Source: an uncultured Planctomycetia bacterium
Lineage (GTDB): Bacteria > Omnitrophota > Gorgyraeia > Velamenicoccales > Velamenicoccaceae
Length of the DNA: 64,000 nt
Assembly (NCBI GenBank): GCA_964471325.1
Contig: CAYYFL010000008.1
Coordinates: forward strand, 20,879-84,878
Direction: 5' to 3'
A program made the translations under genes and the position numbers. How positions within the stretch are numbered: position 1 is the first letter of the stretch; every line of letters starts with the position of its first letter. The notes beneath the pieces are model-generated. The model had not been told where the DNA came from and made no database searches. It saw only the letters and a program-made list of their open reading frames with translations. This document shows positions 41,410-62,574 of this stretch, piece after piece.

Positions 41410-41428
41410 GCGGAAGGAGGTGGAACCG

Positions 41429-41656: not shown

Positions 41657-41729
41657 CGATCAATCAAAGAGCTCATCCGGTGCATTTAGGGCCGGATGAG
41701 CTTGGAGATTTTTTAAGAAAATAAATCCC

Positions 41730-42215: not shown

Positions 42216-42234
42216 GAAAAAGGAGGATGCCCGC

Positions 42235-42855: not shown

Positions 42856-42858
42856 AAT

Positions 42859-44499: not shown

Positions 44500-45705
44500 A
44501 TGCATTACAGATACAACGTTCTTTCACGGACCGGCAATGAGATAAGCGGCGTCGAGCAGGGCTCTTATCAGGCGATCAGGGACAAACTAAAAGACAATAA
44601 TTTTCACATTCTGTCCCTGGAGCCCGACCTTGTTAAGTCTATCGAATTTTACCTGAAAAGAAAGAGGGTCAGGGTCCAGGCCTTGGCGGAACTTTTTGAA
44701 GACCTTTCCAACATCTTGGAGAGCGGCCTGAGCATGAACGAGGCCATTATGACGCTTGAAGAATCCAGCGTTGAACCGGTCTTAAAGCACGCTCTTTCGC
44801 AGATCAACGACAGCCTTGCCACGGGCATTTCATTGGCTGAGGCTTTTAGCCGCACAGAAGTCTTCCCCTGGCAGGTTCTCAATATGGTCCGGGTCGGCGA
44901 GAAATCCGGAGGTCTTGAGCGGGTATTCAGGGATCTGGCAGGGTATTATTCCAGGGAGGCGGACTTTTTACGCAGTTTAAAAGGCGCCCTGGTTTATCCG
45001 GCGGTCGTGCTCTTTCTGCTTGTCGCGGTTATGTTTTACGTTTCTTTCCAGGTGATCCCACATCTGGAATCGCTCCTGCCGTTAAAGGAGAATGCCTATT
45101 TTTTCACGCGTCTGCTTTTGTCTTTGAGCCATGGCCTGAGGGATTATTGGTTTATGTATCTGGTTATTCCTGTTGCCTTGGTTTTTCTTTATTCAAAGCT
45201 CAAGATAAGCCAGGTAGAGCGTATAAGGGATTTTTACTACAGGATCCCCGTCTTAGGCCCTTTGATAAAGGACGTGGCTTTCAGCTTTTTGTTTTCCAAC
45301 CTTGCGATCCTGCAAAGAAACGGCATCAGCGTCATCGAGGCCCTTTCCCTGGTCCGCGAGACGGCCTTTGACAAGTTCTTTGCCGGCAAGATCGCCAAGG
45401 TCAAGGACGCCGTCGTCAGCGGGTTGAGCCTGTGGCAGGCTTTAAAACACGATGCATTTTTCCCGAAGTCTGTCTACTCAAGCATCAGAAAAGGCGAGGA
45501 GATGGGCAACCTTGACAGATACCTGCAGAGCCTGGCGGATTCGTATTTCAAGAAGGTGACCAGGAAGATCGATGCGCTTCTGGGTTTTATCCAGCCGGCA
45601 TTTTTGATGCTTTGCGGGATTCTTCTGTTATTCATCGTCTCGGCGTTTGTCATACCTGTCTACAGCAATCTTTCGAATATCGCAGGCGGGAACGTCAAAT
45701 TCTAA
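44500..45705 (+). CDS. type IV pilus platform protein (GspF/PilC family; R64 PilR-position)
   Basis: Two repeated T2SSF-type domains with three TM helices. Starts directly after the ATPase stop. Confidence 0.9.
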   Translation: MHYRYNVLSRTGNEISGVEQGSYQAIRDKLKDNNFHILSLEPDLVKSIEFYLKRKRVRVQALAELFEDLSNILESGLSMNEAIMTLEESSVEPVLKHALSQINDSLATGISLAEAFSRTEVFPWQVLNMVRVGEKSGGLERVFRDLAGYYSREADFLRSLKGALVYPAVVLFLLVAVMFYVSFQVIPHLESLLPLKENAYFFTRLLLSLSHGLRDYWFMYLVIPVALVFLYSKLKISQVERIRDFYYRIPVLGPLIKDVAFSFLFSNLAILQRNGISVIEALSLVRETAFDKFFAGKIAKVKDAVVSGLSLWQALKHDAFFPKSVYSSIRKGEEMGNLDRYLQSLADSYFKKVTRKIDALLGFIQPAFLMLCGILLLFIVSAFVIPVYSNLSNIAGGNVKF

Positions 45706-45718
45706 AAGGAGGTGGACA

Positions 45719-46144
45719 ATGAGGAACAAGAAGGGTTTTACGTTGATCGAACTGGTCCTGGTCATCAGTATCATCGCGCTTCTCATCATGGCCGTGGGTC
45801 TGGCTTCAGGTGTCAGGGAAAACGCCAAGATCCACTCAGCCGCGGAGTCCGTCAAGTCTTTAAGGACTGCTGCGGAAAGCTACATTGCTTCAGGCAAGAT
45901 AACGTATGAGGGGATTGCAGTTTCCGAACTAAAGACTGCCGGCTACTTACCCGAGAGTTTTTCGGAGACAGGATCAAATCCGTGGGGAGGGGATTACGCG
46001 GTCGTACCGGACACAGACCCCAGCAAGGTGGATATCTCCTTAACACAGGTCAGTACTTCCGGCGCAGCACGGCTTTCAGCCTTGTTTGCCAACAGCGCGA
46101 CAGCAACGAGCTATTCATCCGGAACATGGACTGCGACATTCTGA
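45719..46144 (+). CDS. type IV (pseudo)pilin with class III signal peptide
   Basis: MRNKKGFTLIELVLVISIIALL: prepilin cleavage/methylation motif G|FTLIE. AAAGGAGG RBS. Confidence 0.85.
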   Translation: MRNKKGFTLIELVLVISIIALLIMAVGLASGVRENAKIHSAAESVKSLRTAAESYIASGKITYEGIAVSELKTAGYLPESFSETGSNPWGGDYAVVPDTDPSKVDISLTQVSTSGAARLSALFANSATATSYSSGTWTATF

Positions 46145-46596
46145 AAAAGGATGGTTTTAGCTTAATTGAACTGAGCCTTGTTTTCGCGATAGCTTTCCTA
46201 TCGCTGGGGGCGGCTTTTTATTCTGCGGCCAGAATGAGGCAGAGCGCTCTAGCCATGAGGACGATCCAGGAGCTGGATGCCTTGGCGAGCGCAAGCGCTC
46301 AATATTACCTGGAGAGCGGGGCGTGGCCGCAAGATGTGGCGGATCTGCGGCCCGCCTACCTCAGTCCTCAGGCAACAGACGTTAATCCTTTTGGCAATGT
46401 TTATGCCATAACAGGCGGCGCCTCAAGCGTCACTGTTTCGACAGCGCTGCCGAAGGGGCTCATAACGCCTGAAAATTCTGGCAGCGAGATTGTGGTTCAG
46501 AATCAAGGCGCCAATGATCTGGTCAGCGTCGCAAGGTCCGTTGAGAGCACAACGTGGGGACTGCAGTATGACAAAAAGAATATCTTCCATCAATAA
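46126..46596 (+). CDS. type IV minor pilin
   Basis: MDCDILKKDGFSLIELSLVFAIAFL: prepilin motif G|FSLIE. Overlaps the previous gene by 19 nt. Confidence 0.75.
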   Translation: MDCDILKKDGFSLIELSLVFAIAFLSLGAAFYSAARMRQSALAMRTIQELDALASASAQYYLESGAWPQDVADLRPAYLSPQATDVNPFGNVYAITGGASSVTVSTALPKGLITPENSGSEIVVQNQGANDLVSVARSVESTTWGLQYDKKNIFHQ

Positions 46597-47401
46597 AAAG
46601 GGATTTTCCTTAATCGAGCTATGCATTGTGATGGGGGTTTTGGCCATCCTTGCTTCATCCATCACGCCGGTCTTTATCAAAAGGATTCAGATCAAGGCAG
46701 CTGAAAAGACCGCGCTTGAAATGGCCAATATCCAGCAGGCGGCTTGCGCTTATTTTGTCACAAACGACGCCTGGCCTGACAGTATTCAGACGCTGGAAAC
46801 AGCGGGCTATCTTAATCCTTCTTGGAGCGCCAACAATCCCTGGCAGAATGCGTATAACATTTCATCGACGGCAACAGGCTTCAGCATCACGACTGTGGTG
46901 CCTCAGGAATGGACCAATCTTGTCGCAGGAAACTTGCCTACGAGCTCGGTCGCCGGCGGATCCGTGACGAGCACGGTTTCGGTGCCGGGGGCTATGCCTA
47001 ATGAATCGCTTCCTGCAGGCGCCATCGTCATCTGGTCCGGAACTGTTGCCAGCATTCCTTCGGGATGGCAGCTCTGCGATGGGACCAACGGTACGCCTGA
47101 TTTAAGGGACAGGTTCGTCGTAGGAGCAAGCCGGGATGTGGGAAGTATGGCTGAGACCAATGTCTTAGGGGTTTTGACCAAGGCAGGAGGTGAGGCCAAA
47201 CATACCTTGACCATAGCCGAGATGCCCCCGCATGCGCACTCTTACCGCTGGTGGAACGCATGGTATTTCTCGGGTAGTTCCGAGCTTGGCGCTAAAGGCA
47301 GTTATAATGACAATGCCCAGACAGGTATTACAGGAGGCGGGCAGCCTTTTGATATGCTGCCGCCTTATTATGCCCTATGTTTTATCATGAAGATGCCTTA
47401 A
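46568..47401 (+). CDS. type IV pilin fused to phage tail-collar (PF07484-like) domain; candidate tip adhesin (R64 PilV-position)
   Basis: N-terminus KKGFSLIELCIVMGVLAIL. C-terminus GWQLCDGTNGTPDLRDRFVVG...GGEAKHTLTIAEMPPHAH...GGGQPFDMLPPYYALCFIMK reproduces the collar-domain signature (GW..CDG, PDLRgRf, GGe..h.Lt..e.P.H.H, qP..n.pPy....yiI). Confidence 0.8.
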   Translation: MTKRISSINKKGFSLIELCIVMGVLAILASSITPVFIKRIQIKAAEKTALEMANIQQAACAYFVTNDAWPDSIQTLETAGYLNPSWSANNPWQNAYNISSTATGFSITTVVPQEWTNLVAGNLPTSSVAGGSVTSTVSVPGAMPNESLPAGAIVIWSGTVASIPSGWQLCDGTNGTPDLRDRFVVGASRDVGSMAETNVLGVLTKAGGEAKHTLTIAEMPPHAHSYRWWNAWYFSGSSELGAKGSYNDNAQTGITGGGQPFDMLPPYYALCFIMKMP

Positions 47402-51882: not shown

Positions 51883-52096
51883 CTTGGTTTATCTTGAGGA
51901 GTAGAACCTCAAATGATAAAATGCAGACAGGTTTATCATAATTCTTGGTTACTCCTTGATGCAAGTATCGCATATAATTTAAGGGATTTGGAATAAAATA
52001 GTTATGGCAAAGCAATTGTTAATGCAATCTTATTTTGGTGTGATATATAATGATAAACGATAATAAGCAATGTAACCATTGGGAAGAGGTCTACCC

Positions 52097-52273
52097 ATGG
52101 TAAAAATTGAAACTTATCTTACGGTAAGGCAAGTTGCGAGACAGCTGGGCTTATCGGAATATATGGTTAGGCAGCTTATCCGCGATAAGGAAATGCGGGC
52201 GACAAAAATCAGACAGTGACGAGTAAGGCCTGAGGATTTAGATAATTTTATCAGGGCGAGGACTAAAAAGTAG
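52097..52273 (+). pseudogene. excisionase/AlpA-type HTH gene interrupted by an in-frame TGA at the conserved Trp position
   Basis: Manual translation gives MVKIETYLTVRQVARQLGLSEYMVRQLIRDKEMRATKIRQ-TGA(52217-52219)-RVRPEDLDNFIRARTKK-TAG. The family consensus is ...vkiGrrWripredLe.fl. Confidence 0.5.
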
Positions 52274-52365
52274 AAAGTGTTAAAGACAATTATTCCCTTA
52301 CAAAAACAGGTCGTTAATGGAAGCTGTCTTTGTTGTTTCAGAGATTTAATAGGGAGGTTTAAACA

Positions 52366-54039
52366 ATGAAGAAGAAATCACAGATTAAGCAATTGGAATT
52401 ACCATTCAAGGTTAATAAGGAAGTCGTTAGCCATTTGAGTTTGGGCTTATACAGAAATTTCGCAAGAGCGATTAAGGAACTGATCTCTAATGCATACGAT
52501 GCTGGTGCCACAGAAGTTAAAATCAAGCTGGATCTCGATAAGGCAGAGATTATTGTGAGGGATAACGGCCATGGGATGAGTCTCGAGGATATCGAAAATA
52601 AATTTCTTACAATTGGTTTTGTAACTTCTCCATCTGACAAACCAGATGAACTCGGAAGATATCGAATAGGCACATTTGGGATAGGTTGTCTTTCTGTTTT
52701 TCCATATTGCGATACTATCCATGTAATAACAAAAAAACGAGACAATGACGAATTAATTGAGCTAAATATTGTAACGCAGCGTTTTTTCAGTGGGGTACCA
52801 TCTGATATTGACAAAGAAAAGGCACAATGTATTATTCATAAAAGCGATTTACCCAAAAAAGAGGGGGAAACAATCATATCTCTGAAAAACATAAAACCTC
52901 ACCTAATTAAAGAGCTGCGACAGAAACGAGGCTCTGGTTGGTCCAGCATAGATAAGTTTAGCGGTTTTGAAAAATTTAAATGGACACTGAGTCAATATGC
53001 GCCAATTGAGTTTTCTTCGGATCATAAAGAATTACATGATTTTTTCAGCGTGTCTAAAAGAGTCTCCATGAGACTATGGCTTGATGGAGAAGAGCTTTTT
53101 CGGAATATTCCTGAAAATATGGAAATCCTTGAAAAAGGAGAAGAAAAATTTGGGAAAGTCGTAGTTAAATATGTTATTACAACATCAAAAAAACCGGTCG
53201 AGCCAGAGGAAGCAAGAGGGCTGCAAGTCAGACTCAGAGATGTCGCAGTGGGATTGCCAACGGATTTTGAGGTTACAAAATTTACTGGCAAAGTTCCAGG
53301 GAAATTGAATTATTTATCAGGAGAAGTCTGCATTATGGAGGGTCTTGATTCAGCGCTTATGATTGACAGAGATAATTTTTCGTATACAGAAGAAGTGGCT
53401 GAAATGCAGGAGTTTTTCAGAAAGAAGCTGATTAAATGGAACGACGTTCAGGAAAAGTGGGCTTCAAAAGACAAGGATATTTATGAAGCATTGATGCCGC
53501 TGAAAGATTCTGAGCCGATAATCAATGAATTGAAAAAAGCAAAAATAATCCATTTCTCAAAAGAAAGATTAAGGCTTCCTAGGGAGTCTTTAGTAAAAAG
53601 AGTCAAAGACAAGTTGATCTCGCCAGCTGAAACAATAAAAAAGGCGCTGTCTGATAAGACGGATTTTAAGATCATCTCAAAGAAGCAAAGTGTTAAGGCT
53701 AATCAGCCTGCATTGGAAATCAAGCAAAAAGAAAAATCAATAGTTATTTATGAGGATCATCCTGAATTTTCTGAAATAATTGAAGTTGAAAACAAGAAAT
53801 TTTCTGTCCTTTACGATGAGTGGAATTACAAGAAAACCCAGTATGCATTGTGCAAATTTGAGAAAGACGAAAAGAACGTTGTTTTTAACTCATCTCATCC
53901 TCTCTTTAAGAGCAAAATAAATGATGAGATTATTAAGAGAATAGCCCTTGGTTTCCTCTTGATTGCTAAGAATAGGAAGGATGGGGGAAAATTGCTCAGT
54001 GAATTAAATGGCCTCCTTGAAGATGTGTTCAAGAGATAA
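52366..54039 (+). CDS. GHKL-superfamily ATPase (HATPase_c_3 / MORC-paraMORC-like)
   Basis: Bergerat-fold boxes: N-box KELISNAYDAGA, G1 VRDNGHGMS, G2 IGTFGIGCLS. The ~380-aa C-terminal region is unassigned. Confidence 0.8.
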   Translation: MKKKSQIKQLELPFKVNKEVVSHLSLGLYRNFARAIKELISNAYDAGATEVKIKLDLDKAEIIVRDNGHGMSLEDIENKFLTIGFVTSPSDKPDELGRYRIGTFGIGCLSVFPYCDTIHVITKKRDNDELIELNIVTQRFFSGVPSDIDKEKAQCIIHKSDLPKKEGETIISLKNIKPHLIKELRQKRGSGWSSIDKFSGFEKFKWTLSQYAPIEFSSDHKELHDFFSVSKRVSMRLWLDGEELFRNIPENMEILEKGEEKFGKVVVKYVITTSKKPVEPEEARGLQVRLRDVAVGLPTDFEVTKFTGKVPGKLNYLSGEVCIMEGLDSALMIDRDNFSYTEEVAEMQEFFRKKLIKWNDVQEKWASKDKDIYEALMPLKDSEPIINELKKAKIIHFSKERLRLPRESLVKRVKDKLISPAETIKKALSDKTDFKIISKKQSVKANQPALEIKQKEKSIVIYEDHPEFSEIIEVENKKFSVLYDEWNYKKTQYALCKFEKDEKNVVFNSSHPLFKSKINDEIIKRIALGFLLIAKNRKDGGKLLSELNGLLEDVFKR

Positions 54040-54047
54040 GGGTTACT

Positions 54048-54773
54048 ATGGCAGATTTAGACACGCTGAGAGGGCAACTAATAGAGGAGCTGTGGCTTCC
54101 TGTTGTTAAAGAAGCAGGCAAACATTTTTATGGTAGGCGAAAGAATAAAAGAATGAGGCTTTTTACGCTCACAGATGGAGTTCTTTTCGGCGAACTGATA
54201 AGATTTGAGGGGGAGGGCTTGATACAAAGAGGAGATGCTGTATTGTGGGTTAGCAATATGATTAAAGCAGTCAGGGCGGAAACAGAGTCAAGAGGCTCTG
54301 TTTATAGCGGCTCAATATGCGACGAGGAAGTGTTAGGCACAGTATGCCCCTTAAGATCCTTGTTTCCATGCGATATTTTGAATCTTGATTTTTCATCACA
54401 AGATTATAATTCTAATAATCAAAGAATTGAGAAAGAGATAGGGAAAACAGAACAATTTTTGTGTTTGCAGAACCAAAAGCGCAATCCTGGGTTCGTAGTC
54501 TTGCAGAGTACTGTTATTGATGCAGAGGTTTTAGATAGGGATGCTATCAAAAATTTTTCTGATTCTATGCACGAGAATGACTGGGGTGGTTTGACAATAG
54601 ATGGCTTTCCTCAACTTGTTGCAGACAATGGGCAAAAGAGGAATTTTATCAAACAAGTATTGCAATCCTTGGGTCAGAAATATAAATACAGAGCTTTAAA
54701 AATAACAGATGCTGTTAAGATAATTGATGCCAACCAGCAACTAATTTCAATAGCTGGTATTTTTACGAGGTAA
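54048..54773 (+). CDS. hypothetical protein (possible Rossmann/methyltransferase-like fold)
   Basis: Tightly packed in the operon. LFPCDILNLDFSSQD resembles the D.i.LDpfG-type motif of some MTase-fold proteins. No confident family. Confidence 0.45.
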   Translation: MADLDTLRGQLIEELWLPVVKEAGKHFYGRRKNKRMRLFTLTDGVLFGELIRFEGEGLIQRGDAVLWVSNMIKAVRAETESRGSVYSGSICDEEVLGTVCPLRSLFPCDILNLDFSSQDYNSNNQRIEKEIGKTEQFLCLQNQKRNPGFVVLQSTVIDAEVLDRDAIKNFSDSMHENDWGGLTIDGFPQLVADNGQKRNFIKQVLQSLGQKYKYRALKITDAVKIIDANQQLISIAGIFTR

Positions 54774-54777
54774 CAAT

Positions 54778-55563
54778 ATGAAAACCTTCAGATCAGACAG
54801 ATTGCCTAGATTGACGAAAATTATGTATGACAGCCAACTCAGGCTGAATACTAAAAATTGGGAAGATACACTAAAAGCGAACCATCAAGAAGTTGAGCGG
54901 TTGTTGGAAATGATAAGCATTTTCGATTCCTGGAGAACTTCTTTGGAACGAGCTTACGGTGATGTAGCTAGGGATTTAATTAAAGAAACATTTATGGATG
55001 CTTATATGTCTGTGCATTTTGCTTGTATGGCCTTATATAAGCAAGCCCATGTATCTTTGAGGACTGAGCTTGAGACAGCTTTAAGGTTAGTATATTTTTC
55101 TAGCCATCCCGTTGAATTCAAGTGGTGGAGGGATGATAAAGATTATTTTCATGGGAGACATGTTTGGGGAGATAAATTTGATTATTTCAGAAATTTAGAA
55201 TATTTTCAGCGCTTTGAACAGCGGGCAGTTAAATTATTTGAAACAGAAAATAGGAATAATCCAAATAATATAGGGAAACTATATAAAATTTTATCGAAGT
55301 ATGTGCACAGCGGCTTTCCAGCTTTTTTAACAACCATGCAAAGCGTTGCTCCAGTATATAAACGAGCAGACCTTAATCTTTGGATTGTTAATTTCAAAGA
55401 GGTCCAAAAATGCATTAATACTATTCTTGCTTTGGGTTTTTCTGCTGAATTTAAAGCCTTTGATGCTATTGTACAAAGGAATGTCTTAAGAGTGATCAGA
55501 GACAGAAATTATAAGCGTGGTTTAAAACAGGTGTTAGGGTTACGAATTCAAGGACGTATATAG
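54778..55563 (+). CDS. hypothetical all-alpha protein (weak HEPN/Abi-like features)
   Basis: Tightly packed in the operon. Contains an Rx6H string (RLVYFSSH) and LSKYVHSG. No confident family. Confidence 0.45.
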   Translation: MKTFRSDRLPRLTKIMYDSQLRLNTKNWEDTLKANHQEVERLLEMISIFDSWRTSLERAYGDVARDLIKETFMDAYMSVHFACMALYKQAHVSLRTELETALRLVYFSSHPVEFKWWRDDKDYFHGRHVWGDKFDYFRNLEYFQRFEQRAVKLFETENRNNPNNIGKLYKILSKYVHSGFPAFLTTMQSVAPVYKRADLNLWIVNFKEVQKCINTILALGFSAEFKAFDAIVQRNVLRVIRDRNYKRGLKQVLGLRIQGRI

Positions 55564-55566
55564 AAA

Positions 55567-56658
55567 ATGGGACAAGAAGCGATCGAAAATCAATTGGATA
55601 TTTTGCATAAGGCTCCTTCTACTAGATATCAGGGAAGCAAGAGAAGCATATTAGCTTGGATATACGAAAACCTAAAAGACATTCAGTTCGAAAGTGTCCT
55701 TGATGGCTTTGGGGGGACGGGAAGCGTCAGTTATTTATTTAAACTGATGAATAAGAAAGTAACGTTCAATGATATCCTTCCGTCAAACCATATGACGGGC
55801 ATTGCTCTTATTGAGAATGATTGCATAACTCTAGATGAAGATGATTTAGAGTTTATATCCCACCGAAATGGCTTCAACTATCCGACTTTCATCGAAGACA
55901 CCTTTAAAGGAATATATTACACTTCTGGTGAGAATAGGTTGCTTGATGTGTTGGCCTTAAATATAAGGATGCTTTCTGAAAAATATCAAGGCGATGTTTT
56001 AGCCAAGAAACAGGCGTTGGCTTATTATGTTTTGTTTCAGGCTTGTTTATGTAAACGGCCTTTCAATCTCTTTCATAGAAAAAATCTCTCACTTAGGACT
56101 GCGAGAAACATAAAGAGAACATTTGGAAATAAGAAGACTTGGAATACTCATTTTGAAACATTTCTAAAAAGATTTAATGCAGAGGTTTCCCAGAAAGTCT
56201 TTTCCAATGGTCTTGTAAATAAAGCCATTTCCCAGGACATTGTGGCTATAAAAAAGGAAGATTTTGACCTTGTGTATTTAGACCCACCCTATGCAAGAGC
56301 AGATGAAAAAACACCAAAAGATTATCACGAGCTGTATCATTTTCTCGACGGTTTTGTTGATTATGATAATTGGCCGAAAAATATAAATTTAAACACAAAT
56401 AATAAGAGGATGTTTAAGCAAAAAAACCATTGGGATGAAGGAAAGATTGAAGACAACTTTGATGCTTTGTTCAGGAAGTTTAAGGATTCAATAATTGTTG
56501 TCTCCTACGGAGAGCCCGGATTCCCTTCCATTTATAAAATCAAACAGCTTCTTTCGAAATATAAGTCAAAAGTAAAAATTGCCAAAAAGGAATACAAATA
56601 CAAGTTGAATCACCGGAACGGGCACGGCTTATATGAGGTTTTAATAATAGGGGTTTAG
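55567..56658 (+). CDS. Dam-type (D12 class) N6-adenine DNA methyltransferase
   Basis: N-terminal YQGSKRSILAWI, SAM motif DGFGGTGSVS, catalytic LVYLDPPYA. Confidence 0.85.
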   Translation: MGQEAIENQLDILHKAPSTRYQGSKRSILAWIYENLKDIQFESVLDGFGGTGSVSYLFKLMNKKVTFNDILPSNHMTGIALIENDCITLDEDDLEFISHRNGFNYPTFIEDTFKGIYYTSGENRLLDVLALNIRMLSEKYQGDVLAKKQALAYYVLFQACLCKRPFNLFHRKNLSLRTARNIKRTFGNKKTWNTHFETFLKRFNAEVSQKVFSNGLVNKAISQDIVAIKKEDFDLVYLDPPYARADEKTPKDYHELYHFLDGFVDYDNWPKNINLNTNNKRMFKQKNHWDEGKIEDNFDALFRKFKDSIIVVSYGEPGFPSIYKIKQLLSKYKSKVKIAKKEYKYKLNHRNGHGLYEVLIIGV

Positions 56659-56791
56659 CATGATATATACTTTTGATGAAAGAAATCCCGCCAAAGATTG
56701 GGACACTTCTTTCCTTTTAGTTTCTCATCCTATTTTCTTACAATGCTTAGAAATTCCCCCTCAAATTACTTCTGAATGGAATATAAGATTT

Positions 56792-57536: not shown

Positions 57537-57617
57537 AAAATGACCTGTTCTTGATTTTGCAGTTTTTGTTTGGCCGCAGTAAGTAAGTCCTCCTTTTTTT
57601 TCCTCGCCAAAAATACT

Positions 57618-57820
57618 CAAGGCTTTAATTTCGTCAACAAAATTCAGGAAATAATTCGTCTCCACTCTTGTGGTCTGCCTCAAGAGTGACGTGTCCCTTC
57701 GGGGAGTCCTCAATTTTTTCCTCGAATCCAGGAAGGTTCGCTTACTCCATCCGTCGTTCGCTCTCCTTCGGCCAAGCCCTGTTTTATTGACTAAACCGCC
57801 GTTTGTGGTCTGCCTCAAAC
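57618..57820 (+). repeat. structured intergenic module, copy A
   Basis: Direct repeat of 58990-59190. Contains two hairpins with the invariant loop TGGTCTGCCT (57657-57691, 57800-57821). Confidence 0.85.
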
Positions 57821-57870
57821 GCCTTTAAAGGCCTTGAGTTGCTTTTTGGCGTAAAAGAAAGGAGGACCAC

Positions 57871-58176: not shown

Positions 58177-58275
58177 GCAGTGAAAAAAGCTGCGCTATCG
58201 GCTATACGGGCACTTTAAAAAATCAAACCCAAGGCTAAAATTCCTTTTCTTTTTTTCCGCGATATCTTAATTAAA

Positions 58276-58308
58276 AACCCTCTGCAATATAAATTTTTGC
58301 AGAGGGTT
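58276..58308 (-). terminator. rho-independent terminator (minus strand; possibly bidirectional)
   Basis: AACCCTCTGCAA / TTGCAGAGGGTT 12-bp perfect stem, 9-nt loop. On the minus strand it is followed by TTTTTAATTAA. Confidence 0.65.
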
Positions 58309-58351
58309 GGAAAATTAAGCTCCACTATTATTCAAATCGCTCTTGCGCTTA

Positions 58352-58510
58352 TTAGGGCTTTCGCAATACCTGGCTCGCAGATATCTTTACCACTTTCTCA
58401 TTCCGCCACACCGTTAGAGGCCGTCCACTGCGTTTGTGGTCCTCAACGACCTCTCGAACCGCTTCTTTGAGCGCCCTAAAAGCCTTTGCCTGCATAGTTT
58501 TTTTGGTCAT
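58352..58510 (-). CDS. small protein (52 aa) partnered with zeta-like ATPase genes
   Basis: Manual translation: MTKKTMQAKAFRALKEAVREVVEDHKRSGRPLTVWRNEKVVKISASQVLRKP. It starts 5 nt after the ATPase stop. I recall this type of small ORF next to zeta-like AAA ATPases. Confidence 0.4.
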   Translation of the reverse strand: MTKKTMQAKAFRALKEAVREVVEDHKRSGRPLTVWRNEKVVKISASQVLRKP

Positions 58511-58514
58511 TGCC

Positions 58515-58754
58515 TTACCTCAATGTTCTCATTATTTTTTCAAATAAAACTTTATCAAGGATCTCTGTTTTGCCGTTTTTTTCCTGTGCGATCAATCGGG
58601 GCACGGCATCGGCATTATTAAACAACAGCCACGTATCTGCCAATGGTTTATAGTAGCTCAAACATTTCGCGTAATCAGGCAAAAACTTCTTCGCAAATGT
58701 CGTCTTGCCGGAGCCGTTCGGGCCGGCGATGACATAAACATTTTTGGTTTTCAT
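58515..58754 (-). pseudogene. internally deleted zeta-toxin-like P-loop ATPase remnant
   Basis: N-terminal VYVIAGPNGSGKTTFAKKF is joined directly to a C-terminal-type tail ADTWLLFNNADAVPRLIA. It is 79 aa against about 190 aa in intact family members. Confidence 0.55.
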
Positions 58755-58779
58755 GCGTTAAAATTATATCTCAAAGAAA

Positions 58780-58812
58780 AACCTCCTGCAACAAATTATG
58801 ATGCAGAGGGTT
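58780..58812 (-). terminator. terminator-like hairpin, paralogous to 58276-58308
   Basis: AACCTCCTGCA / TGCAGAGGGTT (one mismatch). On the minus strand it is followed by TTTTTCTTT. Confidence 0.45.
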
Positions 58813-58946
58813 AGAAAATCAGCTCTTCCAGAGGAGCTCAAAGAGAAAGATCGGCAAGTTAAGCTCTTGCGGCCTGACGCGCCTTTTTATCCCTCAGCAC
58901 CCTGTTTCTCACCGTCTTTGTCGTTTTCTTTCCTGGTTTTTCAGGT

Positions 58947-58978
58947 ATGGCTTCGTCTCCTTTCTGTTTGTTTTCGCT
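58947..58978 (-). repeat. inverted copy of the RBS/start region of gene 59247 (anti-RBS arm of module B)
   Basis: ATGGCTTCGTCTCCTTTCTG(TTTG)TTTTCGCT is the reverse complement of 59221-59248 apart from a 4-nt insertion. Weaker similarity continues to about 58850. Confidence 0.85.
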
Positions 58979-58989
58979 TTTGTAACCGT

Positions 58990-59190
58990 AAGCCCTGATT
59001 TTCGTCAATAAAATCACGAAAATAATTCGTCTCCGCTTTTGTGGTCTGCCTCAAAAGCAGCTTCGCCCCTTCGGGGAGTCCTCAATTTTTTTCGCGACCC
59101 AGGAAGGCTCTCGCGCTCCGTCCGTCGTTTGTTCGCCTTCGGGCAGGCCTGTTTTTTTGACAAAAACCGCCGTTTGTGGTCTGCCTCAAC
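58990..59190 (+). repeat. structured intergenic module, copy B
   Basis: Direct repeat of 57618-57820, with hairpins at 59035-59058 and 59167-59194 carrying the same loop TGGTCTGCCT. Confidence 0.85.
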
Positions 59191-59246
59191 CGGCTTCAGG
59201 CGCTTAGGTTAAATTCTCCAAGCGAAAACAGAAAGGAGACGAAGCC

Positions 59247-59531
59247 ATGAAAAACACGAACAAGAAAGAAAACGAACAAAAATTCGACGAAGGGGTGTTG
59301 AGGGCTGACGGCTGCATGATGAGGCATAACCAGCCGCGTCAGGCGGAATTCCGGACGCGCGAAGAGGATTTTCCCGAATCTTCCTTCGGAAAGTCAGCGT
59401 ACTGGGAAGAGAGAAGACTGCTCAACCGCGTCCATGAGCTCATGGCTATGGGTTTTAAGATCAGGCCTGAGCAAACCCTGGAAGAGTTTGTCCAGGCGCA
59501 TGAGGATGCGTTTACAGAGGAGGCGCTATGA
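59247..59531 (+). CDS. hypothetical protein (94 aa)
   Basis: GAAAGGAG RBS. The N-terminal K/N/E/Q-rich leader (MKNTNKKENEQK) is similar to the optional leader of the spoVG-like gene (MRPRTKKQEQNQ). Confidence 0.45.
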   Translation: MKNTNKKENEQKFDEGVLRADGCMMRHNQPRQAEFRTREEDFPESSFGKSAYWEERRLLNRVHELMAMGFKIRPEQTLEEFVQAHEDAFTEEAL

Positions 59532-59710
59532 AGGTATCTGAGTTTCCTGAAAGCTTGAGGAAGATCATCTTGTCCAGCGTGGATGAGATGAATCTGGAGC
59601 AAAAAGTAACCATGGCCCAGGTGAGTATTTCCTTCCGCGTGGGCCAGGAGATCCACGTTGAAAACTGGGAATACAAGGAAAATACCGCAGAAGGAGGGGT
59701 CAGATGTTGA
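59528..59710 (+). CDS. hypothetical protein (60 aa)
   Basis: ATGA-coupled to the previous gene. No family recognised. Confidence 0.35.
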   Translation: MKVSEFPESLRKIILSSVDEMNLEQKVTMAQVSISFRVGQEIHVENWEYKENTAEGGVRC

Positions 59711-60045
59711 CGGAAAGCGGATTAGGGCAATTCACAGGCACGACGCAATGGTTCAGGCACTTGAGCGGTTATCTTTATACGGACGGTGTGCAATATGTGG
59801 CTGAACAAGGCGGCGCCTACTGGCTTTTGGACAAGATCCTGTTTATAACCCGGGCCAAGGCGAAGCTGTGGGAGTTTGGGGTCTGGAGGCTGTCCGTGCG
59901 CGAGGACCGTTCAGCCGTGCTTGTCTGTGAAGACGGCAATTATAACAAGCTTTTTGAGGAGAAGATCGACTGGACGGATTTTCCGCTCAATAAAATTGAA
60001 TTGTGGTTTGAAAACGGCGTCCTGATACTGCCGAGCGAACACTAA
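59704..60045 (+). CDS. DUF6876-like plasmid/ICE leading-region protein
   Basis: FTGTTQWFRHLSGYLYTDGVQYVAEQGGAYWLLD matches my recollection of the DUF6876 N-terminal signature. Not verified. Confidence 0.45.
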   Translation: MLTESGLGQFTGTTQWFRHLSGYLYTDGVQYVAEQGGAYWLLDKILFITRAKAKLWEFGVWRLSVREDRSAVLVCEDGNYNKLFEEKIDWTDFPLNKIELWFENGVLILPSEH

Positions 60046-60067
60046 TCAAAGAAAGGAGGTGAATACT

Positions 60068-60298
60068 ATGCAATTAAACGATCTGAATGGGAAAACCACC
60101 ATCAAAGTCGCAGGAGAAGAAGTCGAGGTCTGTGCTTCTGATTCTGTCAAGGACACCTTAAAAAGGCTCCTTGAGGAAAAGGGCATCGATTCCTTCACGA
60201 TTCTCGTTGACGGCAATGAGGTGGCCTCAACGAACGATCTGCCAGAGACGTTTGCAGATCACGAAATCGAGGTGCAAAGATACGTCAAGGCAGGCTAA
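60068..60298 (+). CDS. ThiS/MoaD-like beta-grasp ubiquitin-like protein ending in Ala-Gly (PRTRC protein C-like)
   Basis: 76 aa. The pattern IKVAGEEVEV...VKDTLKRLLEEKGI..FTILVDGNEV...L.ETFADHEIEVQRYVKAG-stop follows the ThiS/MoaD layout. GAAAGGAGG lies 8 nt before ATG 60068. Confidence 0.6.
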   Translation: MQLNDLNGKTTIKVAGEEVEVCASDSVKDTLKRLLEEKGIDSFTILVDGNEVASTNDLPETFADHEIEVQRYVKAG

Positions 60299-60363
60299 AA
60301 GAAAGGAGAAAGAACGCGGAAAAGAGGGGAGCGACTCCCCTCTTTTCCTTTTTAGAGGTCAAA

Positions 60364-60966
60364 ATGATTGATGAAAAACTAATACACAACGCAAGGCCGG
60401 CATCCAGAATCATAGAAGAGATTGACGACTCCTGGCGCCAATTTGTTGAGAACTTAAAAGACCAGGCGTTCAAAGTCCCCTTTAAAGGAGACTATAGGTG
60501 TTGTGTCAAGAATGACTTTTTTCACGTTGAAGCCTACGTAGGTCCTCTTGTGATCGATAAGCTCTACGATGGCCGCAACACCTATCTGCTCAAGACCCCG
60601 ATTAAGCATGAGGCCTTTACGCTCTATGGCGAATATGACCAGGCCGGGGACTTTTGCAACTTTGTTTCAGACCCTGAGATCGGCTGCCACTATCTGGCCA
60701 TGAGCAATATGGACGCCGGCCGCAAGATCTGCACAGGAGACCTCCAGGTTAACAACGCGAGCCTCAATTCGCTTGAAGCGCTCAAAACAATGGCATTAGA
60801 GGTTATCAAGTCTTTCAGGCTCATTAATCTGACATCTTTAGGCACCGTGATATTGCCTGAAGAGCATTCTATCCTTAAAGATATCTTATCTGATAAGTCT
60901 AAAGGCCCGGATATGAAAACAAAGAGCCTGCTAGACGCAAATTTGATCGAACCATTATTAAAATAG
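60364..60966 (+). CDS. candidate E2-like (UBC-fold) protein (PRTRC protein B-position)
   Basis: Sited between the Ubl and E1 genes. HYLAMSNMDAGRKICTGDL resembles the UBC active-site stretch HPN(I/V)...G.IC. Confidence 0.4.
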   Translation: MIDEKLIHNARPASRIIEEIDDSWRQFVENLKDQAFKVPFKGDYRCCVKNDFFHVEAYVGPLVIDKLYDGRNTYLLKTPIKHEAFTLYGEYDQAGDFCNFVSDPEIGCHYLAMSNMDAGRKICTGDLQVNNASLNSLEALKTMALEVIKSFRLINLTSLGTVILPEEHSILKDILSDKSKGPDMKTKSLLDANLIEPLLK

Positions 60967-60977
60967 GAGAAGAAACA

Positions 60978-61922
60978 ATGCCTCAAGGAGCTATTTACTC
61001 GCGGCAGGAGTTAATCGACCAACTGGACATACCGGAAATCGCTACCGTCATAGGGTGCGGCGGCACAGGATTCTGGACCGCGGTGTTTCTGGCGATGAGC
61101 GGGGTGGAAGAATTGGTCCTGGTGGATCGCGATATCATCGAGATATCCAATCTTAACAGATTGCTCTTGGAAGAGCGGCACGTGGGAAAGAAAAAGATCG
61201 AAGTTCTAAAAGAAATCATCTCAGGTGTTAGAAAATCAACAAGGATCGAAACCCATGACATGCGCATTGAAAAATCAGCGGACTGCCAGGTCCTGCGTGG
61301 GAAAGTATTCTGCTGTACAGATAATTTGAAAAGCCAGCAGCTTATCTGTGCATATGCCAAGAAAAACGACTTAACCTATCAGAGAATAGGCTATGACGGC
61401 ACGGTTTTGAACGTCTCCAGGGCCTTTCCCTTGTCTTTTAAAGAAGTCGAAGGCCAGGAAGGCTATACGTTTACCCCTTCTTGGGTCGTTCCAGCGGCAC
61501 TGGCAGCCGCAGCCGGCGTCGCCTCGGTCATGTATAAGCGGCTGTCTTTGATGGAAGATTTGGGCAAGTTGCACATACAGCATTCTTCCTTTGTCCCTGA
61601 GAAGATCTTGGATGAAGCCAAGCAGGAACGTGAAGATTACATCACAGATCATATCGATGATTATCTTCCCAGCGGTTACGGCTATTGCGACGACTGCAGC
61701 CATTGCGATGACTGCAATAGGGTGGACCCAGAAGATCATTGCTCAGACTGCGACAAGGAATACACCCAAGCTGATCTTGACGAAAAAATCGCTGAAGAGA
61801 AAGAAGAATGGCTGAAAGAAACAATCGAAGAGATCAAATCAGGTGAGATCTCCAGGGAAGAATTAAAAGAAGCTTTGAAGCAATGGTTTAAAATCACTCA
61901 AAGGAGGCCAAAAAATGAATAA
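60978..61922 (+). CDS. ThiF/MoeB/E1-like adenylating enzyme with Cys-rich acidic C-terminal tail
   Basis: ATVIGCGGTGFWTAVFLAMSGV (nucleotide loop) and LVDRDIIEISNLNRL (ThiF signature). Tail YCDDCSHCDDCNRVDPEDHCSDCD. Confidence 0.85.
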   Translation: MPQGAIYSRQELIDQLDIPEIATVIGCGGTGFWTAVFLAMSGVEELVLVDRDIIEISNLNRLLLEERHVGKKKIEVLKEIISGVRKSTRIETHDMRIEKSADCQVLRGKVFCCTDNLKSQQLICAYAKKNDLTYQRIGYDGTVLNVSRAFPLSFKEVEGQEGYTFTPSWVVPAALAAAAGVASVMYKRLSLMEDLGKLHIQHSSFVPEKILDEAKQEREDYITDHIDDYLPSGYGYCDDCSHCDDCNRVDPEDHCSDCDKEYTQADLDEKIAEEKEEWLKETIEEIKSGEISREELKEALKQWFKITQRRPKNE

Positions 61923-62574
61923 TATCCAAAACAACGCAAGCAATATCTTAAACGTCAATATCAAAAATTATACGGACTGCGGATGGTGTTCGGATAAGGC
62001 CAACGAGGAGATCCTGAATATCCCTTGGTTCATCTGGAGCCAGTGGCTGTATATTTCCCGGAGGATGGGCAAGAAAGAGTGGGGAGCGATATTTTGGGTC
62101 AAGGATAACACCGTAACCGGTTTTAAGATTCCCAAACAGGAAGTCAACTCGGTTGAGTGCGCATTCAAAGAGGAATTGGGCGGGGACGGGATTATCCATT
62201 CCCATCATGATATGGGTGCTTTTCATTCGACTCAGGATGACGCCCACGCGCGCAATCTTTATCAGTATTCGATAGTTCTTTCGAATTCAGATGGAAGCGT
62301 CTGTACGAAAAGACTCAAACTGCCCTGCGGAGCTTTCGGCTATATGCAGGTGCGGCTTGGCATCGTTGATCTGCCGGAAATCGATCTGGAAAAAATCGGC
62401 GAGAAAAAGAGAGAAGCGACCTTGGAGCAATCCGAAGAGGAATTATGCCGACAGGCCCAATGCGACGAGCTGCAAATGCAGTGTGAAGAATGCATGAGGT
62501 CTGATTGCCATGGTTGCGAGATTTTTCTTGCTATGCAGAAAATAGAGGCCGGAATGTTTGGGACCGGGTTTTAG
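61915..62574 (+). CDS. JAB/MPN (JAMM) metalloprotease
   Basis: Exact JAMM spacing HxH-x7-S-xx-D in IIHSHHDMGAFHSTQDD, with an upstream Glu (FKEELGG). Cys-rich C-terminus. Overlaps the E1 stop by 8 nt. Confidence 0.85.
   Translation: MNNIQNNASNILNVNIKNYTDCGWCSDKANEEILNIPWFIWSQWLYISRRMGKKEWGAIFWVKDNTVTGFKIPKQEVNSVECAFKEELGGDGIIHSHHDMGAFHSTQDDAHARNLYQYSIVLSNSDGSVCTKRLKLPCGAFGYMQVRLGIVDLPEIDLEKIGEKKREATLEQSEEELCRQAQCDELQMQCEECMRSDCHGCEIFLAMQKIEAGMFGTGF

What the first reader, a model, noticed from the sequence alone, without database searches (positions are those of the whole stretch)
60068..62574. Ubiquitin-like / E2-like / E1 / JAB cassette (PRTRC-type) carried by the conjugative element
Seen: four consecutive genes. 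(i) A 76-aa ThiS/MoaD-like beta-grasp protein. (ii) A 200-aa protein with a UBC-active-site-like stretch (SNMDAGRKICTGDL against HPN...G.IC). (iii) A ThiF/E1 enzyme with an intact nucleotide loop and the DxD..E.SNLNR signature. (iv) A JAMM protease with exact HxH-x7-S-xx-D spacing, overlapping the E1 stop. Established: such operons were predicted as prokaryotic ubiquitin-system antecedents. A ThiF-plus-JAB cassette on plasmids and ICEs is catalogued as PRTRC (ParB-related, ThiF-related cassette), with no assigned function as far as I know. Related E1/E2/JAB modules act in CBASS (Cap2/Cap3) and in the Bil anti-phage system. No ParB-like gene is visible here. Inference: the element encodes a complete protein-conjugation and deconjugation machine. 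It could modify element or recipient proteins during establishment, or counter or mimic host Ubl-based immunity.
Basis: partly seen in the sequence, partly recalled or inferred. Interest (0 to 1): 0.8.

Follow-up and report, generated by a model that had tools for sequence, protein, structure and literature searches.

The report
Ubiquitin-like cassette with unclassifiable His/Cys protein
A conjugative element of an uncultured Omnitrophota bacterium carries a conserved four-gene ubiquitin-like tagging module, but its supposed E2 enzyme matches no known protein or fold, and the module is not the catalogued PRTRC system.

Summary
The four genes are real, in the stated order, and under purifying selection (dN/dS 0.05-0.17). 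The E1 (ThiF, 83 bits) and the JAB (exact JAMM motif) are confirmed.

The 76-aa protein is probably a ubiquitin-like modifier. Its ...RYVKAG end is invariant, 41% of relatives carry 1-2 extra residues after the Gly, and it gives only sub-threshold beta-grasp hits. Its fold was not modelled.

The 200-aa "E2-like" protein belongs to a small family (94 clusters) whose only invariant residues are Pro39, His109 and Cys123. A confident AlphaFold model (pLDDT 94.7) has the UBC order of elements. It finds no significant match in PDB or BFVD, and no Pfam, NCBIfam or PADLOC model hits any of 53 members.

PRTRC membership fails (12 vs 144.75 bits; 22 vs 101.8). The cassette is also not Bil, CBASS or Bub. 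The E1 has no cysteine in its crossover loop but has an invariant tyrosine, as Bub E1s do.

The cassette occurs almost only in Omnitrophota mobile elements. It is a swappable module in an array of small genes headed by ~290-nt hairpins.

Verdict: a new variant of the bacterial Ubl/E1/JAB kind. The E2 identity is unproven.

The parts
58950..59246 (+). ~290-nt imperfect hairpin element heading the orf94-orf60-DUF6876-Ubl-X-E1-JAB gene string. A second copy lies at 57587-57867, upstream of SpoVG. Candidate single-strand promoter or structured 5' leader.
   Evidence: A ~210-nt repeat at ~80% identity. The ssDNA fold has z = -6.4, and z = -7.5 for the other copy, with 0 shuffles folding as well. 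Similar structure precedes SpoVG/orf94 in L011, L013-L016 and L052, while control regions have z of about 0 to -2. No Rfam match.
59247..60045 (+). Three small co-directional genes immediately upstream: orf94 (59247-59531), orf60 (59528-59710) and DUF6876 (59704-60045). They overlap or abut, and there is a 22-nt gap before the Ubl gene. Recurrent neighbours of the cassette.
   Evidence: DUF6876 scores 142 bits. orf94, DUF6876 and SpoVG accompany the cassette in most loci.
60068..60298 (+). 76-aa putative ubiquitin-like modifier ending ...QRYVKAG.
   Evidence: Strong SD sequence. More than 150 clusters at 66-89% identity. The RYVK[AP]G end is invariant, with a variable 0-2-residue tail after the Gly. 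Sub-threshold hits recur in beta-grasp families: DUF348, RBD, Fer2_4 and ubiquitin. An in-register match to ubiquitin beta2-alpha1-beta3 has E = 0.007.
60318..60348 (+). 14-bp GC-rich hairpin followed by TTTTT, between the Ubl gene and the next gene. Candidate attenuator or mRNA-stabilising element.
   Evidence: A hairpin of -24 to -33 kcal/mol sits at the same position in all 17 loci, with different sequences in different lineages.
60364..60966 (+). 200-aa protein 'X' of an uncharacterised family with invariant His109 and Cys123. Candidate Ubl carrier/transferase; E2 identity unproven.
   Evidence: 94 clusters at 50% identity among 1.84 billion proteins. The invariant residues are P39, H109 and C123. 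AF2 model with pLDDT 94.7. No significant PDB or BFVD fold match. No Pfam, NCBIfam, PADLOC or PDB sequence match.
60978..61922 (+). 314-aa single-domain E1-like adenylase with a Cys-free crossover loop (residues ~147-169, invariant Tyr163), a C-terminal CxxC...CxxC cluster and a conserved acidic helix.
61915..62574 (+). 219-aa JAMM/JAB metallopeptidase with a Cys-rich C-terminal tail.

Best explanation
This is a self-contained ubiquitin-like protein-tagging module of a divergent type.

Proposed mechanism:
1. The 76-aa protein is made in excess over the enzymes, through a strong RBS and a conserved hairpin right after its gene.
2. Where the protein carries 1-2 extra residues, the JAMM peptidase trims them to expose the invariant C-terminal Gly.
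3. The E1 adenylates that Gly with ATP.
4. The E1 has no crossover-loop cysteine. The activated Ubl is therefore handed on either through the invariant Tyr163 (an oxyester, as shown for Bub E1s) or directly to Cys123 of the 200-aa protein. Cys123 carries it as a thioester, with His109 assisting.
5. The 200-aa protein passes the Ubl to lysines of target proteins.
6. The JAMM peptidase also reverses the modification.

Shown here: gene content, catalytic motifs, conservation, the co-occurrence of the four genes, and the Cys-free E1 loop. Inferred: every chemical step, the beta-grasp fold of the modifier, and the carrier role of Cys123.

Biological role (less certain): the cassette is an optional module in an array of small genes on Omnitrophota conjugative/integrative elements. 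The array resembles a plasmid leading region, so the cassette most likely acts on host or element proteins around transfer and establishment, rather than being a metabolic system.
For: The E1 adenylation motifs are intact and invariant. The JAMM motif and its upstream Glu are invariant.

The Ubl ends in RYVK[AP]G, followed by a variable tail. Of 120 clusters, 71 have no tail, 43 have C, and the rest have R, Y, M, SK or GC. Distant cassettes have KD and VC. This is the pattern of a precursor processed at the Gly.

The order Ubl-X-E1-JAB is kept in all loci, including cassettes whose X is only ~25% identical or carries extra N-terminal domains. All four genes have dN/dS of 0.05-0.17.

Across 53 sequences down to ~20% identity, X keeps only P39, H109 and C123. 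Its model has the order helix, four strands, His, Cys loop, three helices.

The E1 crossover loop lacks Cys and has an invariant GY..TPSW. The Bub E1 uses exactly such a Tyr (10.1101/2024.11.21.623953).

The hairpin after the Ubl gene is conserved in 17 of 17 loci.

No biosynthetic partner genes occur in any neighbourhood. The neighbours are SpoVG, DUF6876, DUF2958, integrase/resolvase, T4SS genes and restriction/defence cargo.
Against: No UBC fold or any other known fold could be assigned to X, so its carrier role rests on context and two residues.

The beta-grasp fold of the small protein was not modelled. No model passes threshold.

The C-terminus is Ala-Gly, not Gly-Gly.

The E1 matches known E1s only over its N-terminal half, and its closest solved relatives by sequence are the peptide-modifying enzymes PaaA and MccB.

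No target is known and no experiment exists.
Confidence: 0.5

Rival explanations
1. E2-independent tagging. The E1 alone activates the Ubl and transfers it to lysines, as in archaeal SAMP/UbaA and Thermus TtuB/TtuC. The 200-aa protein would then be a substrate adaptor, regulator or principal target, not a thioester carrier.
For: No UBC fold or E2 family membership was detectable for X. Distant members carry N-terminal small beta-barrel-like or Cys-rich extensions, which suit target binding. E2-less Ubl conjugation in SAMP and TtuB systems is established knowledge, recalled from memory.
Against: An adaptor would not be expected to keep exactly one His and one Cys invariant across ~20%-identity relatives. 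The E1 lacks the crossover-loop Cys.
Confidence: 0.15
2. Same chemistry, but the role is anti-phage or anti-MGE defence, like Bil, Type II CBASS or Bub. The element would carry the cassette as cargo that tags invading phage proteins.
For: All experimentally characterised bacterial Ubl/E1/E2/peptidase operons to date are immune systems. The cassette shows presence/absence polymorphism among related elements. It lies next to restriction-modification-like, GmrSD, SMC-like and Bub genes.
Against: The defence genes beside it vary from locus to locus, while the cassette keeps the same non-defence neighbours: SpoVG, orf94, DUF6876/DUF2958 and integrase. In L052 it is replaced by a DUF932 gene, not by a defence system. 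No PADLOC model hits the Ubl, X or the JAB. No CapW/CapH-CapP-type regulator was seen.
Confidence: 0.15
3. Sulfur-carrier system. The E1 adenylates the small protein, Cys123 of X delivers a persulfide to make a C-terminal thiocarboxylate for a thiolation reaction, and the JAB matures the carrier. This would parallel QbsCDE or CysO/Mec+/MoeZ.
For: JAMM-mediated trimming of extra residues from a sulfur carrier, and Cys-dependent sulfur relay, are known in those pathways (recalled from memory). The E1 is ThiF/MoeB-like and lacks a catalytic Cys, as MoeB does.
Against: There is no rhodanese domain, no cysteine desulfurase, and no ThiG/MoaE/CysM/TtuA-type acceptor enzyme in any of ~30 neighbourhoods. 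The context is exclusively mobile-element genes. The C-terminus is AG, not GG.
Confidence: 0.08

Closest known systems
Bil (bacterial ISG15-like) systems, Type I/II: operon type 6d of Iyer, Burroughs & Aravind 2006 (PMC1779556)
   Same: Four separate genes for a Ubl, a Cys-containing middle protein, an E1 and a JAB/JAMM peptidase. No E3. The middle protein is presumed to choose targets.
   Different: [quoted passage not shown] Here the E1 is a single 314-aa adenylation domain with no crossover-loop Cys. The Bil E2 is a recognisable UBC-type protein with its conserved His after the Cys. Here the His precedes the Cys and no UBC similarity is detectable. No PADLOC hit for the Ubl, X or the JAB.
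Bub (6E/DUF6527) operons (10.1101/2024.11.21.623953)
   Same: A homodimer-type single-domain E1 whose crossover loop lacks Cys and contains an invariant Tyr. A JAMM peptidase matures the Ubl at a conserved Gly.
   Different: The Bub E2 uses Ser/His, and Bub operons encode the BubE serine protease. Here X has Cys/His and there is no BubE. The E1s are barely alignable, and X shows no similarity to a Bub E2-E1 fusion. A genuine Type II Bub operon sits next to this cassette in Ca. Velamenicoccus archaeovorus, so the two are distinct systems.
PRTRC (ParB-related, ThiF-related cassette; TIGR03734-03741)
   Same: A ThiF-family protein plus a JAB-like protein (PRTRC_A) on plasmids and ICEs, with unknown function. 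The JAB's only NCBIfam hit is PRTRC_A, over the JAMM motif.
   Different: Scores are far below the cutoffs (12 vs 144.75; 22 vs 101.8). There are no PRTRC_B/C/D/E or ParB components.
E2-less prokaryotic Ubl systems (archaeal SAMP/UbaA/JAMM; Thermus TtuB/TtuC) and JAMM-matured sulfur carriers (QbsE/QbsD, CysO/Mec+)
   Same: A small beta-grasp-type protein with a C-terminal Gly, a ThiF/MoeB-like single-domain E1 and a JAMM peptidase.
   Different: Those systems are chromosomal and tied to sulfur metabolism or tRNA thiolation, end in GG, and have no obligatory His/Cys partner protein. This comparison rests on recalled knowledge, not on tests made here.

Membership tests
PRTRC system | ThiF component passes TIGR03736 (PRTRC_ThiF), cutoff 144.75 bits | tested here: not met
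   12.0 bits, E = 0.097
PRTRC system | PRTRC_A (TIGR03735), cutoff 101.8 bits | tested here: not met
   The JAB scores 22 bits, over the JAMM motif only
PRTRC system | Presence of PRTRC_B/C/D/E and a ParB-related protein | tested here: not met
   No such hits for the Ubl, X or neighbours, nor for 53 X-family members. No ParB among the ~40 window ORFs scanned. Not every small ORF was scanned.
UBC/E2 superfamily (for the 200-aa protein) | UBC fold | tested here: not met
   The model has pLDDT 94.7. The best Foldseek PDB hit has E = 0.38 (p32). UBC/UEV chains appear only at E 1.5-3 with TM 0.20-0.32. Only the order of secondary-structure elements agrees with UBC.
UBC/E2 superfamily (for the 200-aa protein) | Sequence-profile membership (UQ_con, Prok-E2_A-E, RWD, UEV and related models) | tested here: not met
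   0 of 53 members hit any such Pfam model at E <= 1. hhalign against canonical E2s gives probability 1%. The profile finds no PDB sequence.
UBC/E2 superfamily (for the 200-aa protein) | Invariant catalytic Cys with an upstream His (HPN...C) | tested here: inconclusive
C123 and H109 are invariant, with ~11-14 residues between them in most members.
E1/ThiF/MoeB superfamily | Adenylation domain with a nucleotide loop and the Asp/Arg motifs | tested here: met
   Pfam ThiF 83.2 bits against a cutoff of 28.1. GxGGTG, DxD, SNLNR and CTDN are invariant.
E1/ThiF/MoeB superfamily | Catalytic Cys in or inserted into the crossover loop (thioester-forming E1s) | tested here: not met
   No Cys in residues ~147-169 in any of 16 orthologues; Tyr163 is invariant there.
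JAB/JAMM metallopeptidases | E...HxH-x7-S-xx-D motif | tested here: met
   E55, H95, H97, S105 and D108 are invariant. Prok-JAB 27.8 bits against a cutoff of 25.
Ubiquitin-like beta-grasp modifiers (ThiS/MoaD/Ub) | Beta-grasp fold | tested here: inconclusive
hhalign against ubiquitin gives E = 0.007 in register. hhalign against ThiS gives nothing.
Ubiquitin-like beta-grasp modifiers (ThiS/MoaD/Ub) | Conserved C-terminal Gly exposed directly or after trimming | tested here: met
   The Gly is invariant. 71 of 120 clusters end at it and 49 carry 1-2 extra residues. The end is Ala-Gly or Pro-Gly, not Gly-Gly.
Bil system | E1 with IAD-AAD-CYS architecture, and a UBC-type E2 with His after the Cys | tested here: not met
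   Single 314-aa adenylation domain with no Cys domain. X has His before Cys and no UBC match.
Type II CBASS (Cap2/Cap3) | E2-E1 fusion with a CD-NTase and an effector | tested here: not met
   PADLOC E1-E2 models match only E1 residues ~22-129. No CD-NTase occurs in any neighbourhood.
Bub system | BubE (DUF6527) protease and a Ser/His E2 | tested here: not met
   No PF20137 in the cassette. X has Cys/His. No similarity to a Bub E2-E1 fusion.
Bub system | E1 crossover loop without Cys but with an invariant Tyr | tested here: met
   compared. This is a resemblance in mechanism-relevant residues only, because the E1s are barely alignable.

The most novel reading that the evidence does not exclude
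The 200-aa His/Cys protein is a structurally new Ubl-carrier enzyme that does not derive from the UBC fold (a convergent 'E2'). It is charged by a cysteine-less, tyrosine-dependent E1, giving a hybrid oxyester-to-thioester relay. The cassette is expressed from hairpin-type single-strand promoters as the element enters a new cell, and it tags recipient proteins to aid establishment or blunt host immunity.
Probability: 0.15. Interest if true: 0.85.

Novelty: new variant of a known kind. Interest (0 to 1): 0.6.

Why it matters
Every bacterial ubiquitin-like conjugation system characterised so far (Type II CBASS, Bil, Bub) is an anti-phage immune system built on recognisable E1 and UBC-type E2 proteins. 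This cassette differs in three ways.

1. Its position in mobile elements suggests a role for the element rather than for the host.
2. Its E1 lacks the catalytic cysteine but keeps a Bub-like tyrosine.
3. Its obligatory partner protein has a confidently predicted fold that matches nothing solved.

If the partner really carries the Ubl on Cys123, there is a second structural solution to the E2 problem. That would also extend tyrosine-oxyester E1 chemistry beyond Bub. If the hairpin elements are single-strand promoters, the cassette would be a first example of protein tagging deployed during conjugative entry, in a phylum (Omnitrophota) with almost no genetics.

All of this is testable with four small soluble proteins.

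Tried and rejected
- PRTRC membership: rejected on NCBIfam cutoffs.
- UBC fold for X: tested with two AF2 models (pLDDT 76.5 and 94.7), Foldseek against PDB and BFVD, hhalign against three canonical E2s (sequences from memory), hhalign against a Bub E2-E1 fusion, a Pfam scan of 53 members, and a PDB profile search. None gave a significant match.
- Relation of X to the 196-aa protein of a second Ubl system in L028: none.
- ThiS/MoaD identity of the small protein: not supported by Pfam, NCBIfam, PDB or hhalign against ThiS.
- Bil, CBASS and Bub membership: rejected.
- My interim idea that the cassette is fixed backbone of the element: rejected. TraH-seeded loci include L052, which has SpoVG, orf94 and DUF6876 but a DUF932 gene plus a 192-aa gene in place of the cassette. 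Three loci show no cassette within 10 kb.
- Occurrence on sequenced plasmids or phages, or in IMG/VR: none for X, the JAB or the Ubl.
- att-type direct repeats between the left junction (~25.6-26.0 kb) and the region after the JAB: none of 10 nt or more. Element ends and integrase were not located in the window.
- Rfam families for the hairpins: none.
- Literature: no paper mentions DUF6876, and the leading-region paper mentions no Ubl, ThiF, JAB, SpoVG, DUF932 or DUF2958.
- A profile scan of genome contigs with the diverse alignment failed for lack of a conserved stretch and was rerun with the closer alignment.
Full report
**1. What is there**

The region holds four co-directional ORFs:
- 60068-60298: 76 aa.
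- 60364-60966: 200 aa, called X below.
- 60978-61922: 314 aa.
- 61915-62574: 219 aa, overlapping the previous stop by 8 nt.

The 76-aa ORF starts at the ATG at 60068, which is preceded by AAGGAGGTG. The alternative GTG at 60059 lies inside that ribosome-binding site, and orthologues begin at the equivalent Met.

Against two relatives at 85-95% amino-acid identity, all four genes have dN/dS of 0.05-0.17. The same order recurs in every related locus recovered. The genes are real and functionally linked.

**2.

*E1.* The 314-aa protein matches Pfam ThiF at 83.2 bits (cutoff 28.1) over residues 23-133. It has G26CGGTG, D50-R-D52, S57NLNR and C113TDN, all invariant in orthologues.
- NCBIfam equivalogs for ThiF, MoeB, UbaA and others all score far below their cutoffs.
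- PADLOC Cap2 'E1-E2' models match only the adenylation core.
- By sequence, the nearest solved structures are PaaA, MccB, ThiF, UBA3 and UBA5, again over the N-terminal half only.

*JAB.* The 219-aa protein passes Prok-JAB (27.8 bits against 25). It has E55, H95-x-H97, S105 and D108 invariant, plus a Cys-rich tail.

**3. An unremarked feature of the E1**

The crossover loop is SRAFPLSFKEVEGQEGYTFTPSW (residues ~147-169). It contains no cysteine in any of 16 orthologues, including the most divergent cassettes. Its invariant residues are FPL, G-Y163 and TPSW.

The other invariant cysteines are C103, C112/C113, C124 and a C-terminal CxxC pair of the Zn-ribbon kind.

The Bub preprint reports the same situation. 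The BubCD crossover loop lacks Cys, and its only invariant residue, Tyr370, is required for conjugation and forms a Ubl~Tyr oxyester (10.1101/2024.11.21.623953). The canonical E1~Ubl thioester is therefore unlikely here. A Tyr oxyester, or direct attack on the adenylate by another protein, is more plausible. This is inference.

**4. The small protein**

No Pfam, NCBIfam or PADLOC model reaches threshold.

Indirect evidence for a ubiquitin-like modifier is nevertheless good:
- It is the most conserved gene of the cassette, with more than 150 clusters at 66-89% identity.
- The C-terminus RYVK[A/P]G is invariant.
- What follows the Gly varies. Of 120 clusters, 71 have nothing, 43 have C, 2 have R, and Y, M, SK and GC occur once each. 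Distant cassettes have KD and VC. This is the pattern of Ubl precursors trimmed to expose a terminal Gly.
- Sub-threshold Pfam hits recur in four different beta-grasp families: DUF348 in 19 of 37 members, RBD in 17, Fer2_4 in 8 and ubiquitin in 1.
- hhalign places residues 18-54 in register with ubiquitin beta2-alpha1-beta3 at E = 0.007, in a single comparison against a ubiquitin sequence from memory.
- ThiS gave nothing, and the end is Ala-Gly, not Gly-Gly.

I call it a probable Ubl. I do not call it ThiS/MoaD-like.

**5. The 200-aa protein**

A word-indexed search found 10 relatives. An exhaustive profile search of 1.84 billion representatives found 94 clusters, 64 of them at E <= 1e-10.

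In an alignment of 53 full-length members down to ~20% identity, only P39, H109 and C123 are invariant. P79, G107, G125 and S158 are nearly so. The recurring motif is G-x-H-[FYW]...[ILV]-C-x-G-[DE].

With the shallow alignment, AlphaFold gave pLDDT 76.5. With the 53-sequence alignment it gave pLDDT 94.7 and pTM 0.83. The order of elements is:
- two N-terminal helices;
- four antiparallel strands, two of them 17-19 residues long;
- a short strand carrying His109;
- a loop carrying Cys123;
- three helices.

That is the order of a UBC domain, and Cys123 lies 14 residues before the next helix, as in E2s. All tests of homology nevertheless failed:
- Foldseek against 350,542 PDB chains found nothing at E <= 0.001. 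The best hit was p32 at E = 0.38. E2-25K, Ube2T and TSG101-UEV appear only at E 1.5-3 with TM 0.20-0.32.
- BFVD gave only uncharacterised phage proteins at E 0.05-0.18.
- hhalign against canonical E2s gave probability 1%, and in the wrong region.
- hhalign against a Bub E2-E1 fusion gave 0.4%.
- None of the 53 members hits any Pfam, NCBIfam or PADLOC model of an E2, RWD, UEV or PRTRC component.
- The profile finds no PDB sequence.

The refutation criterion 'no UBC-like fold' is therefore met as far as these tools can see, while 'no catalytic Cys' is not. X is either a very derived UBC or a different fold. I put true UBC ancestry at about one in three.

**6. Linkage of X to the system**

Even remote members lie between an ~80-aa gene ending ...G-xx and ThiF + JAB genes. 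These include members at E 1e-16 to 1e-35 with N-terminal extensions of 70-160 residues that look like small beta-barrel or Cys-rich modules.

X therefore belongs to the machine. The variable N-terminal modules suggest that it engages targets.

**7. A conserved hairpin**

Between the Ubl stop and the X start lies a 14-bp GC-rich hairpin followed by TTTTT (60318-60348). A hairpin of -24 to -33 kcal/mol occupies that gap in all 17 loci examined, with different sequences in different lineages.

I read it as an attenuator or stabiliser that raises the Ubl:enzyme ratio. That fits a protein consumed stoichiometrically. This is inference.

**8. Context**

*The window.*
- Positions 1 to ~25,700 are ordinary chromosomal genes.
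- From 25,985 to 51,882 there is an F-type transfer set: TraG_N, a Replic_Relax protein, a coupling protein, TraE, TrbI, TraC, TraU, TraF and TraH, with a secretin/PilB/PilC module.
- 51.9-56.8 kb is a 37%-GC island holding a GHKL ATPase and a D12 methylase. It is absent from the close relative L030.
- Then come SpoVG, orf94, orf60, DUF6876 and the cassette.
- A response regulator follows the cassette, and it also follows in L007, L009 and L030.
- No ParB, integrase or tRNA was found in the window, and no att repeats.

*Distribution.*
- Ten of 14 genome loci are Ca. Omnitrophota, including the complete Ca. Velamenicoccus archaeovorus genome.
- There are no relatives in 72,556 plasmids, 50,697 phages or IMG/VR.

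*Other loci.*
- The cassette sits between variable restriction/defence cargo and a DUF2958-SpoVG-small-ORF-integrase or resolvase end.
- In V. archaeovorus a Type II Bub operon lies 2 kb upstream. The two systems are therefore distinct and can coexist.

*Backbone or accessory.* I first took the cassette for element backbone. TraH-seeded metagenomic loci corrected this. It is present in L030 and L039. In L052 it is replaced by a DUF932 gene plus a 192-aa gene, although SpoVG, orf94 and DUF6876 are present. It is absent within 10 kb in three further loci. It is an optional, swappable module.

**9. Leading-region flavour**

A ~210-nt sequence is repeated at 57619-57825 and 58990-59196. Each copy lies in a ~290-nt imperfect hairpin whose closing stem pairs with the RBS of SpoVG or of orf94. 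As ssDNA these fold with z = -7.5 and -6.4.

Comparable structure precedes SpoVG or orf94 in six other loci (z -3.2 to -5.7), while control regions have z of about 0 to -2. Rfam has no match.

orf94 through JAB are co-directional and tightly packed, so the second hairpin heads the string that contains the cassette. This resembles the Frpo/ssi single-strand promoters of plasmid leading regions, which is my recollection. The leading-region paper I could read does not mention Ubl components. A structured mRNA leader is an equally valid reading.

**10. Mechanism and comparison**

The best explanation (confidence 0.5) runs as follows:
1. The JAB matures the Ubl.
2. The E1 adenylates Gly76.
3. The Ubl passes via Tyr163, or directly, to Cys123 of X.
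4. X transfers it to target lysines.
5. The JAB reverses the modification.

Rivals are E2-independent tagging with X as an adaptor (0.15), the same chemistry used for anti-phage defence (0.15), and a sulfur-carrier pathway (0.08, with no acceptor enzymes anywhere).

The cassette works most like Bil in gene set and like Bub in E1 chemistry, but it fails the defining features of Bil, Bub, CBASS and PRTRC. Iyer et al. 2006 (PMC1779556) predicted operons of this general kind, including on conjugative elements. This particular family, with its unclassifiable His/Cys protein, appears in none of the libraries or papers searched.

**11. Verdict**

This is a new variant of a known kind. Interest is 0.6. 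The system is not a new class of system. The confidently modelled but unmatched partner protein, the Cys-less Tyr-bearing E1, and the mobile-element position each give a specialist something concrete to test.

Noticed in passing
window 57587-57867 and 58950-59246: Two ~80%-identical copies of a ~210-nt repeat, each inside a ~290-nt imperfect hairpin that ends at the RBS of SpoVG or of orf94. The ssDNA fold has z = -7.5 and -6.4. Similar structure occurs upstream of the same genes in six other loci. Possibly Frpo/ssi-like single-strand promoters or structured mRNA leaders. No Rfam match.
   Followed up: partly
window 60318-60348: A strong hairpin plus T-run between the Ubl gene and the next gene. 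It is conserved in position and strength, but not in sequence, in 17 of 17 related loci.
   Followed up: yes
L025 5836-7701 (Ca. Velamenicoccus archaeovorus CP019384.1, about 636.6-638.5 kb): A Type II Bub operon (Multi_ubiq, DUF6791-ThiF fusion, BubE) sits next to HsdR and an HTH/M78 pair, 2 kb upstream of the same SpoVG-...-Ubl cassette. Two different ubiquitin-like systems lie side by side on one element.
   Followed up: partly
window 51886-56787: A 37%-GC island encoding a GHKL/HATPase_c_3 ATPase (52366-54039), two ORFs with no significant Pfam hit (54048-54773 and 54778-55563) and a D12 adenine methylase (55567-56658). It is absent from the otherwise collinear locus L030. Probably a defence or restriction-type cargo insertion.
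   Followed up: partly
L052 6360-7774: In a related element that has SpoVG, orf94 and DUF6876, the slot occupied elsewhere by the cassette holds a DUF932 gene (50 bits) and a 192-aa ORF with no Pfam hit. A methylase-like gene follows DUF6876 (not scanned against Pfam).
   Followed up: partly
L028 18-1548: A second small system lies just upstream of a divergent cassette: a ThiF-family protein (221 aa), a 196-aa protein unrelated to X, and a ThiS-family protein ending ...DGGK (Pfam ThiS 23.1 bits).
   Followed up: partly
P0152, P0153, P0171, P0172 (N-termini); P0154, P0159: Distant members of the X family carry N-terminal extensions: repeated small beta-barrel/SH3-like-looking modules, or Cys-rich modules. 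These are possibly target-recognition domains. They were judged by eye only.
   Followed up: no
window 58262-58819: Two ~54-nt palindromic hairpins (58262-58315 and 58766-58819) bracket a minus-strand pair of small ORFs. One ORF is 52 aa. The other is a 79-aa fragment with a P-loop and weak AAA/zeta-toxin-like hits. This looks like a small inserted or decayed unit between SpoVG and orf94.
   Followed up: no
window 38603-47401: The F-type transfer genes are interleaved with a secretin, a PilB-like ATPase, a PilC-like platform protein and an N-methyl pilin-like gene. This is an unusual combination for an element of Omnitrophota.
   Followed up: no
E1 residues ~270-305 (window ~61785-61890) and JAB C-terminus (window ~62440-62520): The E1 ends in a conserved acidic amphipathic helix after its CxxC cluster, which could be a docking site for X. 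JAB orthologues carry tails with a variable number of CxxC pairs, from two up to more than six.
   Followed up: no
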